Below, one piece after another: positions 49,825 through 57,779 of a stretch of DNA of 60,876 nucleotides. The position numbers and the translations under genes are program-made. The stretch's first letter is position 1. Each line of letters starts with the position of its first letter. Under the pieces are notes generated by a model. The model was not told the DNA's origin and did not search any database. It saw only the letters and a program-made list of their open reading frames with translations. Source of the DNA: Emiliania huxleyi CCMP1516. Its lineage: Eukaryota. Location: NCBI RefSeq assembly GCF_000372725.1, contig NW_005201381.1:369953-430828 (forward strand), read 5' to 3'.

Positions 49825-52800
49825 TCAGCCGCGCCGCTTGGAGAGGCGCCACGCGTTGGGGTCGTTGAAGCGGTCGTACAGCGGCTCGATGCGCTCGTTG
49901 CGCTTCCGCTTGGAGAGGTGGCGCGGGTCGGCCTGCTGGTAGTAGCGCGGCGCGAGCTCGGTGAGCCACTTTGGCTCGATGGCCATGCACTCGCGCATGT
50001 ACTCCTTGGAGGTGAGGACGAGCTCATGGTAGATGCACCTAAGCAAGCAGTCAGCCAAGTAAGTGAGGGATTCGTTCAATGAGGGCAGGATCGTGGTAGA
50101 GGCACCTAAATGATACACGAATGAATGAATGATCTCATTCTTGGAGGAGGGGAGGGCCGCGGCAGACGCACCACTCGGGGTTGCGGTTGAAGAGCGCGGA
50201 GGAGGGGTGGATGTACACGACCTGGCCCTCGTCCATCGTCTTGTACCCCTCCTGCGGGTCCTTCTTGGCCGCGTGCGTGAAGTAGCCCGACGTGATCGCC
50301 TTGCGCACCTTTGTGAAGTTGCGGCCGCACGTCTCGATCTCCAGCTTGTACCGGTCCATGATGGTGAGCAGCTGCTTGCGCACGTCCTGCGCCTTGCGCA
50401 TGTTTCGCGCCTGGATGAAGTTCTCGAAGCACCACGGGTTTGAGAACTTGGCCGCCGCCCAGCCTTGGTAGACGGCGAGCAGCGTGATGTGGTCGCCCTC
50501 CGCCTGGAAGAGCGCCACCCCTCAGTCAATCAACGAGTGCGTGAACGAGCTACCTAACCAGCCCTCCGCCTGGAAGAACTTGGAGCGCTTCTGGTCCGCC
50601 TGCGCCTGCTTCTCCTTCGGGCGGTACCAGATGTTTTGGACGGAGAGCATCGCAACCACCGTGAGCACCTCGTCGGAGCAGCCCAGCTCGACCGAGGCGA
50701 TCAAGATCTTGGACATCGGAGGCTCGAGCGGGAACTCGGCCATGCGGCGGCCGAGGCGCGTGAGCAGCCCCTCCTCGTCGAGGGCAGAGAGCGCGTACAG
50801 CGCCTCCATCGCCGCGACGAGCGTCTGCACGGGCGGCGCGTCCATAAAGTCGAAGTGGAGCAGGTCGTTGACGCCCATCGCCTTCATCTGCAGCACGGTG
50901 TTGCCCAGGTTCGTGCGCTGGATCTCCGGCACGTTGGTGGGCAGCATCTCGTTCTTGTACGCCTGCTCGGCAGCGAGGACGTATGATTGGTGTAACCGGC
51001 TACTTCCCCGTGGGTTCGGGTACCGTGGGGGTAGGGGAGGGTTGGTTCGGGTACCATGGAGTAGGGGAACGCCTGCTCGGTGTAGAGGCGGATGAGCTTC
51101 CCGAGGGAGATATGGGGAGATACGGGGAGATATGGGGAGGTCGCCTGCTCGGTGTACAGGCGGTAGCACTTGCCCGGACCGGTGCGGCCGGCGCGCCTAC
51201 AGACGGTATTGTGCAGCGTGTTGAGAGCACCGCGTGAAGACAACAGAGAGGAGGACAGTGAATACAGCGGAATACAGCGGAATACAGCGGAGTGCAGCGG
51301 AATGCAGCGGAGTACGTGCCCTCTCGAGCGCTGGTTGGGAGACATGAATGCGTGGGTGCGGCCGGCGCGCCCCGACCGCTGCCGCGCCGACGCCTGCGAG
51401 ATCGGCACCACCACCAGCGAGTCCATGCCGACCTTTGCGTTGTACACCTTCTGCTTGACGAAGCCTAGAGGGCGGGTTCGGGCCCCGTGGGGTAGGGGAA
51501 GGTGGGTTCGGGTACCGTGGGGTAGGGGAGGGTGGGCTCACCGGGGTCGACGACGTAGAAGATGCCGTCGATCGTGAGGGATGCCTCGGCGATGTTTGTC
51601 GCGATGACCCCCTTGCGCGAGCCGGGCGGCGCGGCCTCGAAGATGCGCCTAGGAGCAGACGCATGCCGCGTTGTAGTTCTTCTTTGGGGGGGGGGGGGGG
51701 GGTGCCGCCGCGCGTAGAAATAGAGACATCAGGCAGCAGGGATGATGGGCATATCTGGGCTATATCTCGGCTCGATCTCGGCTCTATCTCGGCTCCATCT
51801 CGCGTCTGCTGCTCGGACGGGAGCGCAGAGTAGACGGGCAGGATGATGAGCTCCGGCAGCGACGGGCCGAGCGACTTCATCCGCTCAAAGAGGATCTGGC
51901 AGGCGGTGTCGATCTCCTCCTGCCCCGTGAGGAAGAGGAGGACGTCGCCGGGCGGCTCCTGCAGGTGGATCTGCATCACCGTGATGAGGGCCGCGTCCAT
52001 GTAGTCCGCCTCGGGCGCCTGCAGGGAGGGTCCAGGAACGGTCTAGGAAGAGTCTAGGAAAGGCCGCGTCCATGTAGTCCGCCTCGGGCGCCTGCATGCA
52101 GGTATGCAGGTGTGCACAAGGGTCGAGGGAGGGCTCTGCAGGCTCGCGCGAGGAGATATGAGGGAGGTACGAGGGAGGTACGAGGGAGATATGAGGGAGG
52201 TACGAGGGAGATATGAGGGAGGTACGAGGGAGGTACGAGGGAGGTACGACGTAGAAATGAGGGGAGATATGAGGGAGGTACGAGGGAGGGACGAGGGAGG
52301 GACGAGGGAGAGATGGCGCCTTTGTGTAGAGGACCTCGACCGGGAAGGTGCGGCCTACAGGAAGGTTCCAGGAACGGTCTAGGAGCAGTCTAGGAACGAG
52401 CACCGCGACCGGGGAGGTGCGGCCGGGGATGGTGAAGATCGGGCACTCGAAGAAGTAGGACGAGTACTTCTCCGCGTCGAGGGTCGCCTACAGGGAGGCT
52501 CCAGGAGCGGTCTAGGAACAGTCTAGGAACGAGCACGCCTCCGCGTCGAGGGCCGCCGAAGTGCAGATGAGCTTGAGGTCCTTGCGGCGGGCGAGCAGGC
52601 CCTTGAGCAGGCCGAAGAGGACGTCGGTGTGAATCGTGCGCTCGTGCGCCTGGTCGAGCATGATGGGCGAGTTGATTACTTGTGGTTAGTTAATCAACTT
52701 GTTCATTCATTCACTCGTGCGCCTCGTCCAGCACGATGAGCTAATTGACACACTGATTAACTAGCTAGCAGTTAATTCATCTGTTGAGTAGCGCCTCGTC

Positions 52801-55800: not shown

Positions 55801-57779
55801 TCGCGCAGCTCGCGCCGCTCCTTGGCCAGCGCCGACTGCGTCATCGCGGCGCGCTGCAGCGAGCCGTCGGGGTTGCGGACGATCTTGATCGGGGACATGG
55901 CGACGGAGGCCTTGGTCTGGCCGCGGAGGAAGAGGGGCTCCGCCTCGTTGAGCTCGATCTCGAGCTCCTCCTCGGTGGCCTATTGGTAATGAAGAATGGT
56001 AACTAATTAACAGGAAGTAACTAGCAGTCTCCAGCTCCTCCTCGGTGGCCTATTGGTAATGAATGGTCACTAATTAACTAGGAAGTAACTAGCAGTCTCC
56101 AGCTCCTCCTCGGTGGCCTATTGGTAATGAATAATGGTGGTTAATTAACTAGGAAGTAACTAGCAGTCTCGAGCTCCTCCTCGGTGGCCTCGAACGTGTT
56201 GGCGAGGCCGTGCTCCTCGTCGAACTGCGGGGAGGGGGCGGCGGGGTGAGGGGTCAGAGGGCAGATGTGGAAAAGGTGGAAGGGAGGAGGCATGTGCGAA
56301 GGAGGGAGGGAGGGAGTGGGTGGGTGGTGGGTGGGGGGGGGGGGCATGTGTGAAGGGGGAAGGGCGAAAGGCAAGGGGTGGGTAAGGGGTAAGGGGGGGC
56401 AGGGAGGGCACCTGCGGGTAGTCGCGCACGTCGAGCACGCCGCTCGCGATCAGCTGCTTGGCCTCGAACAGCTCCGGCGAGGTCAGCCGCTTCGCGGGCC
56501 TAAAAAAAGAAAGTCGGCCCGCCGCGCTCACTCCGAGAGAGGTGTGAAGGCGAGGTCAGCCCCGTGGCGGGCCGGTGCGGCTCGTCGCGCTTGCTCACCG
56601 CCGACAGCCGCTTCCGCTCCTCGGCGCGCACCTACACGTGCACACACATCGCGCTCCCTCTGTCTCTGTCTCCGTCTCTGTCTCTGTCTCCTCCCTCCCT
56701 CCCTCCCTCCCTCCCTCCCGTCCTCTCTCTTCTCTCTCTCCCTCTCTCCTCGCACCGGGTCGTCTGGCGGCCGCATCGGGTTGGAGCGCGACGGGCCCGC
56801 CCCGCCAGGCACGCGCATCGCCGGCGTGAGGTCGGCGCCTGCACGGGGTTCGTCAATTGGAGGAAGTGTCTAGGAAGTGTCTGGGAGGTGTCTGGGAGGT
56901 GTCTGGGAAGTGTCTAGGAAGTGTCTAGGAGGTGTCTAGGAGGTGTCTAGGAGGTGTCTAGTAACTGTCTAGTACGTGTCTGGGAAGTGTCTGGGAAGCG
57001 TCTGGTCGGCGCCCGTCTGCTGGTCGGCGTCCCGCAAGGAGAGGGACATCTTGGAGCCGGTGGTGGAGAGGACCTTGACGAAGCAGGGCTGCCCGCGCTT
57101 CAGCGCGTCGTGCGGCGATCGCAGCGGCTGCGACTGGATCAGCGACACGTGCACCAGGCCCTCGGCCTTGCCGCGCACGCCGCTCAGCTGCACAAACGCG
57201 CCAAAGTCCATCACGTTTGTGACGCGGCCGGCGTACACCTTGCCCGGCTCGGCCGCCGCGTCGGCGTCGCGCGAAAAGTCGCGCGCCAGCGCCGCGCCGC
57301 TGCTGCCGCCCCCGCCCCCGCTGCTGCTGCCCGCGCCGCCGCCGCCGCGCCCGCCCGGCGGCGGCGGCGGAGGCGGAGGCCGCCGATCGGCGGGGCGGCC
57401 GCCGATGGCGGGGTCGACCGCCGCGCGCGCGCCGAGGGCCTCCTCCTCCAGCTTCCGCAGCCGCTCCGGGTCCGCGTTCGGGATCGCCAGCCCGGAGAAG
57501 CGCTCGGTCGGCCCGGACGAGGACGACGCGGCGGCGCTGGCCGCGGGCGCCGACGGCGCGGGGCGCTTGCGCGGCGCCATGGTCTGCACGAGGTGGAGGA
57601 GCGTCGACGCAAAGTNNNNNNNNNNNNNNNNNNNNNNNNNNNNNNNNNNNNNNNNNNNNNNNNNNNNNNNNNNNNNNNNNNNNNNNNNNNNNNNNNNNNN
57701 NNNNNNNNNNNNNNNTCTTGAGCTCGGAGCAGATCTTCTGGACCAGCGAGAGGCGCTGCAGCCCGAGAAGGGCGTCCAT
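49825..57779 (-). CDS. PRP22: Spliceosomal DEAH-box RNA helicase PRP22/DHX8
   Basis: N-terminal [11 protein letters not shown]1 domain ([22 protein letters not shown]), [65 protein letters not shown]2/OB-fold and terminal WRLSKRRG*. 21 introns placed manually (13 GC, 6 GT and 2 GA donors); a gap lies at 57616-57715. Confidence 0.96.
53358..55079 (-). repeat. Intronic tandem array, 24 units (22 x 72 bp + 2 x 69 bp)
   Basis: Minus-strand unit is GTCCTCGTCGTGATTGGCGAGACGGGCTC (a copy of the next exon's first 29 nt) plus TAATTAACAGAGTCGTTGA(G/T)GAATGAAT(A/C)TGTTGATTCACCAG. Confidence 0.95.
55980..56188 (-). repeat. Intronic tandem array, 3 x ~70 bp
   Basis: Each unit starts GCCACCGAGGAGGAGCT(C/G)GAGA (exon copy) and ends CATTACCAATAG. 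Confidence 0.92.

What the first reader, a model, noticed from the sequence alone, without database searches (positions are those of the whole stretch)
49825..57779. Most PRP22 introns are built from a duplicated exon junction plus a short core: candidate active intron-generating system
Seen: in my manual model about 17 of 21 introns carry a copy of flanking coding sequence, usually the first bases of the downstream exon at the intron 5' end. Examples: 56500-56572 (21/24 nt), 55754-55820 (25 nt), 55277-55347 (~19 nt), 55122-55189 (15/16), 52488-52556 (17/18), 52355-52423 (23/26), 52019-52091 (30 nt), 51197-51370 (16 nt) and 50504-50569 (17 nt across both junctions). Many are 66-73 nt long. The donor dinucleotide is simply whatever the duplicated exon starts with (GC, GT or GA). 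Established: tandem duplication across an AG|GY proto-splice site and insertion with direct repeats are proposed intron-gain routes, and known introner transposons usually leave much shorter TSDs. Inference: a mechanism that duplicates 10-30 nt of target and inserts a ~40-50-nt core ending in AG has been seeding introns here. It would also explain the excess of non-GT donors.
Basis: partly seen in the sequence, partly recalled or inferred. Interest (0 to 1): 0.9.

Follow-up and report, generated by a model that had tools for sequence, protein, structure and literature searches.

The report
Algal introns built from duplicated junctions
In a splicing-helicase gene of the bloom alga Emiliania huxleyi, most introns carry a 10-35-letter copy of the coding sequence they interrupt plus a short filler, a footprint also seen in other genes, which likely records new introns being made by insertion into staggered DNA cuts and would help explain this alga's unusual splice signals.

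Summary
The gene is E. huxleyi PRP22. A 21-intron model gives an open 1,076-aa frame, and RNA contigs support 19 of 21 junctions. Seventeen introns carry a copy of their own junction: 15 clearly, 2 marginally, 4 not. Most are built of 66-73-nt units (copy 12-35 nt plus core 38-54 nt), single, stacked or amplified up to 24 times. One core family turned up at five other loci, each with its own 22-30-nt flanking copy. Haptophyte-like orthologues read through these positions, so gain is likely. A wild allele lacks one 97-nt unit bounded by a perfect 21-nt repeat, but no intron-less allele was seen, so present-day intron creation is not shown. The copy is of genomic, not spliced, sequence in two informative cases. 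Best reading: insertion at staggered cuts with long, variable target duplications, filtered by splicing. E. huxleyi is already listed as an introner genome with unresolved duplications; I found no description of this long-duplication anatomy. New variant of a known kind.

The parts
49825..57779 (-). PRP22/DHX8 spliceosomal DEAH helicase gene, 21 modelled introns; first exon separated by a 100-N gap
56839..57012 (-). Intron, 174 nt, GC..AG; 10-nt junction copy, 11-mer repeat core
   Evidence: RNA skip 174
56632..56755 (-). Intron, 124 nt, GT..AG; no significant copy
   Evidence: consecutive RNA pieces
56500..56572 (-). Intron, 73 nt, GC..AG; 21/24 copy of the next exon
   Evidence: RNA skip 73
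56225..56411 (-). Intron, 187 nt, GT..AG; no significant copy (7 nt at the 3' end)
   Evidence: RNA skip 187
55980..56188 (-). Intron, 209 nt: three tandem units (71, 68, 70 nt) of a 22-nt copy plus AT-rich core
   Evidence: RNA skip 209
55754..55820 (-). Intron, 67 nt, GA..AG (placement forced); perfect 27-nt duplication, 40-nt AT-rich core
   Evidence: RNA skip 67
55456..55696 (-). Compound intron, 241 nt, GA..AG: a 174-nt part distantly like family C plus a 67-nt unit with a 10-mer repeat core; copy marginal
   Evidence: RNA skip 241
55277..55347 (-). Intron, 71 nt, GT..AG; 19/22 copy
   Evidence: RNA skip 71
55122..55189 (-). Intron, 68 nt, GC..AG; 15/16 copy
   Evidence: RNA loose end
53358..55079 (-). 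Intron, 1,722 nt, GT..AG: 24 tandem 72-nt units, each a 34-nt junction copy plus 38-nt core
53113..53291 (-). Compound intron, 179 nt; its first 97 nt (perfect 21-nt repeat that includes 6 intronic bases, plus seven 11-mers) are absent from wild contig L007
   Evidence: RNA skip 179
52650..52866 (-). Compound intron, 217 nt: two 72-nt units (three in L007) plus a different 73-nt unit; both splice sites lie in the duplication
   Evidence: RNA skip 217
52488..52556 (-). Intron, 69 nt, GC..AG; 24/28 copy plus family-A core
   Evidence: RNA skip 69
52355..52423 (-). Intron, 69 nt, GC..AG; 23/26 copy plus family-A core, 45/49 identical to the neighbouring intron
52019..52319 (-). Compound intron, 301 nt: 228-nt part plus the 73-nt family-A unit 52091-52019, whose perfect 35-nt duplication includes the older acceptor
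51649..51803 (-). Intron, 155 nt, GC..AG; no significant copy
   Evidence: RNA skip 155
51465..51541 (-). Intron, 77 nt, GT..AG; no copy; core 88% like the unit at 51072-50963
   Evidence: RNA skip 77
51197..51370 (-). Intron, 174 nt, GC..AG; perfect 17-nt duplication plus family-C core
   Evidence: RNA skip 174
50963..51144 (-). Compound intron, 182 nt: 72-nt and 110-nt units, each ending in a copy of the upstream exon end
   Evidence: RNA skip 182
50504..50569 (-). Intron, 66 nt, GC..AG; 17-nt duplication across the junction
   Evidence: RNA skip 66
50039..50171 (-). Compound intron, 133 nt: 66-nt and 67-nt units with decayed copies (marginal)
   Evidence: RNA contigs end on either side, no joint displayed
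19772..19961 (+). Second family-C copy in a neighbouring ankyrin-repeat gene, with its own 11-nt direct repeat; putative intron
   Evidence: no RNA laid
19175..19235 (+). About 60-nt unit (13-20-nt copy plus another 11-mer core) in the same gene; putative intron
   Evidence: no RNA laid

Best explanation
Most introns of this Emiliania huxleyi PRP22 gene are spliced-out stretches built of units of about 70 nt, each a 10-35-nt copy of its own junction plus an unrelated core, and they likely arose by insertion into a staggered DNA cut whose fill-in duplicated the target. Shown: the anatomy, the splicing, the same core at unrelated loci with locus-specific copies, and length polymorphism. Inferred steps: (1) two nicks 15-40 nt apart open genomic DNA; (2) the free end copies about 40-50 nt from a template, often the 3' end of another intron or an abundant intronic 10-11-mer repeat and often a nearby one, helped by a few bases of microhomology; (3) fill-in leaves target-core-target; (4) the event survives only if it can be spliced: a G[C/T/A] donor at the start of the copy with AG from the core, or an AG|G site inside the copy, or a position beside an existing junction, and a total length near the minimum spliceable size; (5) the direct repeats then recombine into arrays or drop a unit precisely. 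Whether the template is RNA (target-primed reverse transcription) or DNA (break repair with templated filler) is not resolved, and no enzyme was identified.
For: Own-junction copies in 17 of 21 introns against swapped and shifted controls. Family-A core: 7 of 7 metagenome hits (6 loci, one being PRP22) have a 22-30-nt copy of their own downstream flank; own scores 14.5-30, scores between different loci at most 11, leaving aside same-gene pairs. Family C lies at three places, each with its own 11-21-nt repeat. Two events duplicated unspliced sequence: the 97-nt unit copies 6 intronic bases and unit 52091 copies the older acceptor. Family-A units end in CAG in the 4 of 8 sites whose target already had CAG and in TAG in the other 4 (Fisher p 0.029), as expected if the target end primes or overlaps the template end. 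Sixteen short units are 66-73 nt long (sd 2.6) while copy and core vary more. Haptophyte-like orthologues, two on contigs of 289 and 414 kb and others running into introns elsewhere, read through 5 to about 20 of these positions; PMC3174169 (passages) reports no detectable conservation of E. huxleyi intron positions with other eukaryotes.
Against: No intron-less allele of any whole intron in four DNA runs or L007, so no empty site was seen in the species. The 97-nt difference could be a precise deletion in L007 or a collapse in that metagenome assembly. Ancestral absence rests on protein ORFs, which can only be found where a gene is intron-poor; only one close relative carries a species name and no orthologous DNA was seen. 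Most AT-rich cores are single-copy by depth and have no identified source. The inverse relation of copy and core length (rho -0.94) is partly built in, since a decayed copy is counted as core, and unit boundaries were set by hand. The family-A loci were picked by an exact 22-nt pattern and number only six. The rest of the window shows the pattern rarely.
Confidence: 0.7

Rival explanations
1. Older introns were remodelled: a break inside an intron was repaired by briefly copying the spliced mRNA, its cDNA or an intron-less allele, so that exon sequence replaced one end of the intron. No new introns are made.
For: Would give exon copies anchored exactly at junctions and a roughly constant intron length; six introns hold stacked, different units at one junction; no empty sites were seen.
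Against: In two informative units the copy includes intronic bases, not the spliced junction. Positions appear absent from related lineages. It does not explain one core family at unrelated loci.
Confidence: 0.12
2. A conventional introner: a non-autonomous transposon family moved by one transposase, with fixed ends and a fixed duplication length of about 30 nt that has since decayed.
For: Family A has a near-constant 42-nt core and copies of 22-35 nt; E. huxleyi is a listed introner genome with families of about 70 and 37 nt (PMC9860276 supplement).
Against: Perfect, sharply ending duplications range from 17 to 40 nt; cores are of many kinds; no terminal inverted repeats in family A (folding z 0.1-0.7); introner duplications in the papers read are 3-9 nt.
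Confidence: 0.1
3. Plain tandem duplication or slippage across an AG|GY site created the introns, and the middle of the duplicate later decayed or was invaded by minisatellites.
For: Arrays of 2, 3 and 24 units show that slippage or unequal crossover is frequent here; unit length is near constant.
Against: Perfect duplications end sharply against cores with no likeness to the exon (GC 25-35% in several); 9 of 21 upstream exons do not end in AG; nearly the same core sits in different genes.
Confidence: 0.07
4. The duplications are assembly artefacts.
For: The genome is repeat-rich and the window has gaps; the 24-unit array length was not checked with long reads.
Against: Independent contigs span the single-unit introns with their own substitutions; copies differ from their exons by mismatches and indels; RNA removes exactly one copy.
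Confidence: 0.01

Closest known systems
Introners that co-opt a splice site from their target-site duplication (Aureococcus, Symbiodinium, Polarella; PMC9860276 passages; 10.1101/2020.10.14.339549 passages)
   Same: Insert carries the 3' AG, donor (GC/GA/GT) comes from the duplicated target; sometimes both sites come from it; related cores at unrelated loci; goes with non-GT donors.
   Different: Duplications there are 3-9 nt and fixed per family, often with terminal inverted repeats. Here they are 10-40 nt and variable, cores are many and partly simple repeats or unique, and units stack and amplify.
E. huxleyi CCMP1516 introner families in the two surveys (supplement rows of PMC9860276; PMC12130899)
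   Same: Same species; families of about 70 and 37 nt; one 2025 family is 'co-opt 5', carry 3'' with a note '10bp terminal direct repeats'.
   Different: Duplication status is '?' for four of five 2022 families and 'N' for one; 2025 mechanism 'Unknown' with automated duplications of 2-4 nt. Family sequences were not seen, so overlap with families A and C is untested; the 2025 curation removed families driven by simple repeats, which could exclude family A.
Daphnia pulex neointrons from staggered double-strand-break repair (PMC4202315 passages)
   Same: Direct repeat of the adjacent exon at the far end of the intron, AT-rich inserts of unknown source, repeated secondary insertions at the same site.
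   Different: Daphnia repeats are 4-12 bp and the introns segregate with empty alleles; here repeats reach 40 nt, some cores form dispersed families, and whole introns appear fixed.
Target-primed reverse transcription by non-LTR retrotransposons (recalled; not from a call)
   Same: Variable-length duplication, fixed 3' end, variable 5' end, junction microhomology.
   Different: No poly(A) tail, no source element or reverse transcriptase identified; inserts are only about 40-50 nt.

Membership tests
Introner (PMC9860276, PMC12130899) | Similar intron sequences at non-homologous positions | tested here: met
   Family A at 8 distinct sites in 6 loci, 0-6 differences in 42 nt from consensus; family C about 70% alike at three places. 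Not met for most AT-rich cores.
Introner | Consistent homology boundaries at both intron edges | tested here: not met
   3' edge fixed at the acceptor; 5' edge begins 22-35 nt inside the intron and varies.
Introner | Short, family-specific target-site duplication (3-9 nt) where present | tested here: not met
   22-35 nt in family A; 11-21 nt in family C; 17-40 nt among perfect copies.
Introner (MITE type) | Terminal inverted repeats | tested here: not met
   No stable terminal pairing in family-A cores; four other cores have internal hairpins with z below -2.5, of 21 folded.
Introner | Similarity not driven by simple repeats | tested here: not met
   Family A is four variants of an abundant 11-mer; family C has unique parts as well.
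Introner | Splice sites carried or co-opted so that the mRNA is restored | tested here: met
   RNA contigs remove exactly one copy.
Introner | Lineage-specific positions | tested here: inconclusive
   Supported indirectly by uninterrupted ORFs of relatives; no orthologous DNA seen.
Introner | Autonomous partner or mobilising enzyme | not testable with these tools
   No whole genome held.
Staggered-break neointron (Daphnia type) | Direct repeat of flanking exon at the opposite intron end | tested here: met
   longer than the 4-12 bp reported
Staggered-break neointron (Daphnia type) | Segregating intron-less alleles | tested here: not met
   None in four DNA runs and L007 where covered; only an internal unit differs. 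Small sample.
Non-LTR retroposition | Variable duplication, fixed 3' end, variable 5' end | tested here: met
   Family A; selection for an AG end would give the same picture.
Non-LTR retroposition | Poly(A) or repeat tail and a source element with reverse transcriptase | tested here: inconclusive
   No poly(A); cores are often 10-11-mer repeats; no reverse transcriptase among the window ORFs scanned; genome not searchable.
Tandem duplication across AG|GY | Whole intron derived from exon sequence | tested here: not met
   Cores unrelated to flanks.

The most novel reading that the evidence does not exclude
Spliced-out introns seed new introns: a host or retroelement reverse transcriptase copies the last 40-50 nt of any excised intron, starting at its 3' AG, into staggered cuts 15-40 nt wide, preferentially in the same gene. 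The process is still running, has rebuilt most of E. huxleyi's intron complement, and is the cause of its GC-majority donors because the donor is whatever exon bases were duplicated.
Probability: 0.25. Interest if true: 0.92.

Novelty: new variant of a known kind. Interest (0 to 1): 0.72.

Why it matters
How new spliceosomal introns arise without a dedicated transposon is an open question, and the footprints are usually a few bases long and ambiguous. Here they are 10-40 nt, present in most introns of one gene and in other genes, at different stages of decay, in a cultured species with many sequenced strains. That makes rate, template and enzyme testable by genome-wide counting and strain comparison. 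It also offers a mechanistic alternative to the published suggestion that E. huxleyi's 56% GC donors simply reflect high GC content (PMC4028052 passages). Practically, exon copies inside introns mislead gene prediction and read mapping, and the repeats allow precise intron loss or array growth.

Tried and rejected
No whole genome is held, so no genome-wide count was possible. The cluster look-up for naming the orthologous proteins could not be made; they are placed by a tree only (40 hand-picked rows, FastTree; a larger tree did not finish). Core patterns found nothing in viral contigs or prokaryote genomes. A model-free scan of six metagenome loci and the rest of the window found further 58-78-nt units in the loci but mostly low-complexity noise in the window; it has no null and is used only as illustration. 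Links among AT-rich cores are weak (z 3.6-6 among 600 comparisons, both orientations), so I do not call them a family or assign orientation. A shift of copied donors towards the U1 consensus was seen by eye in a few units but was not counted. The Pfam scan of 44 window ORFs and 10 more frames found no reverse transcriptase. Nine literature searches found no description of long junction duplications in E. huxleyi introns. The 2013 genome paper is not held; I recall that it reports intronic 10-11-nt repeats, and its supplement may bear on novelty. Two of 14 supplementary files of PMC12130899 were not searched and the PMC9860276 file is cut. PMC2784329, PMC13518057, PMC8379373 and PMC11282704 (passages) gave nothing on this anatomy. 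Look-ups of earlier findings by place and sequence were empty.
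Full report
Identity. The 134-aa exon 50561-50962 is 100% identical to an Emiliania huxleyi CCMP1516 RNA helicase, with the Pfam domains of a DEAH helicase and best named hits to DHX8/PRP22. 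No whole genome is held for the window.

Gene model. A spliced alignment allowing GT, GC, GA and GG donors, run against two orthologues and corrected with RNA in the variable linker, gives 21 introns and an open frame of 1,076 aa after the 100-N gap. Contigs of three RNA runs (X10 and X11; X10 and X13) support 19 junctions: 17 by displayed joints, one by consecutive pieces, one by a loose end. The lengths of exact overlap that the tool reports at the single-intron joints equal those computed from the model. These are contigs, so they show presence of the spliced form, not its share.

Is it more than chance? An ungapped match from both intron ends to the intron's own spliced junction scores 9 or more for 13 of 21 introns and for 0 of 420 swapped pairs. 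Four more have an internal copy touching the junction, two far above 132 control positions and two reached by 1 of 132; four introns have none. Donors are 13 GC, 6 GT and 2 GA, close to the published 56/40/4% (PMC4028052 passages). In 19 of 21 the donor equals the first two bases of the next exon (expected 10.0; 0 of 100,000 permutations), and both GA donors are forced.

Anatomy. The building block is a unit of junction copy plus core. Sixteen short units measure 66-73 nt, with copies of 12-35 nt and cores of 38-54 nt (boundaries set by hand, and the inverse relation is partly built in). The copy may lie at the 5' end, at the 3' end or across the junction, as expected for a target duplication with the splice point somewhere inside it. 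Six introns stack different units at one junction; three hold tandem copies of one unit (2, 3 and 24). Cores are mixed. Family A (four variants of an abundant 11-mer) fills three consecutive sites in this gene, two of them 45/49 identical, which suggests local copying. Family C also lies in a neighbouring gene. The AT-rich cores are single-copy by depth with only weak mutual likeness.

Other genes. An exact 22-nt family-A pattern found 7 metagenome contigs: two of one gene, one of PRP22, and four other loci, among them an APC4-like and an AAA (replication-factor-C-like) gene. In all 7 the core is preceded by a 22-30-nt copy of that locus's own downstream flank, and units are 67-73 nt, or 84 nt with one more repeat. 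In four loci tested, at least one frame that is open without the unit gains a stop with it; no RNA was laid there. Further 58-78-nt units with other cores occur in these loci, and a third family-C copy with its own repeat lies in L005. Among the 8 distinct family-A sites the unit ends in CAG where the target already had CAG (4) and in TAG where it had only G (4) (p 0.029). Against generality: outside PRP22 the window has 5 exact repeats of 11 nt or more spaced 65-74 nt in 53 kb, against 16 inside, and the neighbouring DNA-ligase-like gene shows clear copies in only a minority of its apparent introns (by eye).

Gain or remodelling? Proteins of the clade that holds E. huxleyi and Haptolina include ORFs that are probably genomic: P0080 and P0022 on contigs of 289 and 414 kb, P0013 on 10 kb, and P0008, P0009, P0015 and P0040, which run into non-homologous tails. 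They read through 5 to about 20 of the window's positions, and their apparent introns fall elsewhere (near residues 829, 898, 930, 946, 989). They lie on both sides of E. huxleyi in the tree. This is indirect, is biased towards intron-poor genes, and the organisms are unnamed except Haptolina. It agrees with PMC3174169 (passages), which found no detectable conservation of E. huxleyi intron positions. Two units exclude a spliced template: the 97-nt unit at 53291 copies six bases of the old donor, and unit 52091 copies the old acceptor.

Is it active? Wild contig L007 lacks the 97-nt unit precisely and has three 72-nt units where the window has two. DNA pieces of runs X2 and X3 both stop at 53188 with 55 letters left over, which is the leftmost placement of that same 97-nt skip; the joint itself is not among the displayed rows, so this is an inference. 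Direction is unknown. No DNA joint removing a whole intron appears in the displayed rows for four runs (107 rows hidden). Most copies differ from their exons by up to about 15%, more than the few per cent between alleles, so most gains predate the split of these strains. Recent, yes; creating introns now, not shown.

Mechanism. The best reading is insertion at a staggered cut with fill-in, copying from intron ends or intronic repeats, then selection for spliceable products and secondary recombination between the repeats (0.7). An RNA template (target-primed reverse transcription of intron 3' tails) and a DNA template (break repair with templated filler) both fit; the fixed AG end favours neither, because splicing would select for it.

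What is known. Introners that take a donor from their duplication are well described with 3-9-nt duplications, and Daphnia neointrons carry 4-12-bp repeats. E. huxleyi CCMP1516 is listed with 653 introner copies in five families of about 70 and 37 nt, duplication status mostly unresolved, and with three families of unknown mechanism in 2025, one noted for 10-bp terminal direct repeats. So intron gain in this species is known. The 10-40-nt variable duplication, the mix of cores, the stacking and arrays, and the link to donor choice were not found in nine searches; the 2013 genome paper could not be read. It works like a duplication-co-opting introner but fails several membership tests.

Verdict. 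Real, RNA-supported, present beyond this gene; a new variant of known intron-gain routes. Interest 0.72; the most novel reading has probability 0.25 and would merit 0.92.

Noticed in passing
window 53358-55079, 52650-52866, 52019-52319 (minus): Each unit boundary in the stacked introns is an AG followed by GT or GC, so these introns could be removed stepwise (recursive splicing). Contigs cannot test this.
   Followed up: no
window 50504-50569; L001/L003, L002, L005, L006 family-A units: The intronic copy often differs from the exon by small indels (1-7 nt), which may mean error-prone synthesis of the copy. Seen by eye and; no null.
   Followed up: partly
window 52355-52556: Two adjacent family-A introns share a core variant that the other loci lack, and both targets have a similar 6-7-nt word where the copy meets the core; suggests local copying with microhomology at the 5' junction.
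   Followed up: partly
window 29450-34230 (+): ATP-dependent DNA ligase gene (Pfam), ligase IV-like by recall; apparent intron 31345-31594 starts with a diverged copy of about 24 nt of the next exon in which GC reads GT.
   Followed up: partly
window 37100-38520 (+): Intron-containing ORF with a DDE_Tnp_4 domain, a family that I recall as Harbinger-type; a divergent ORF at about 39950-41470 has no Pfam hit.
   Followed up: no
window 45242-46068 (minus): Stand-alone RNase H ORF beside an assembly gap; possibly a retroelement fragment; no reverse transcriptase in the flanking frames tested.
   Followed up: partly
window 41770-43090 (+): Peptidase_M50B gene with 10-mer-repeat introns; 42808-42991 looks compound, with a short repeated junction (by eye).
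   Followed up: no
window 56861-57003 and 53204-53284: The 11-mer repeat behind family A is extremely abundant: summed contig depth about 10,000 times single-copy in run X1. It reads like a repeated pyrimidine-plus-TAG acceptor.
   Followed up: no
L003 2374-2451: 78-nt unit with a perfect 40-nt duplication and a 38-nt hairpin core (folding z -4.0), the longest copy seen.
   Followed up: partly
protein P0003: The public CCMP1516 model of this gene lacks the N-terminal third and mis-splices at three junctions relative to the RNA-supported model.
   Followed up: partly
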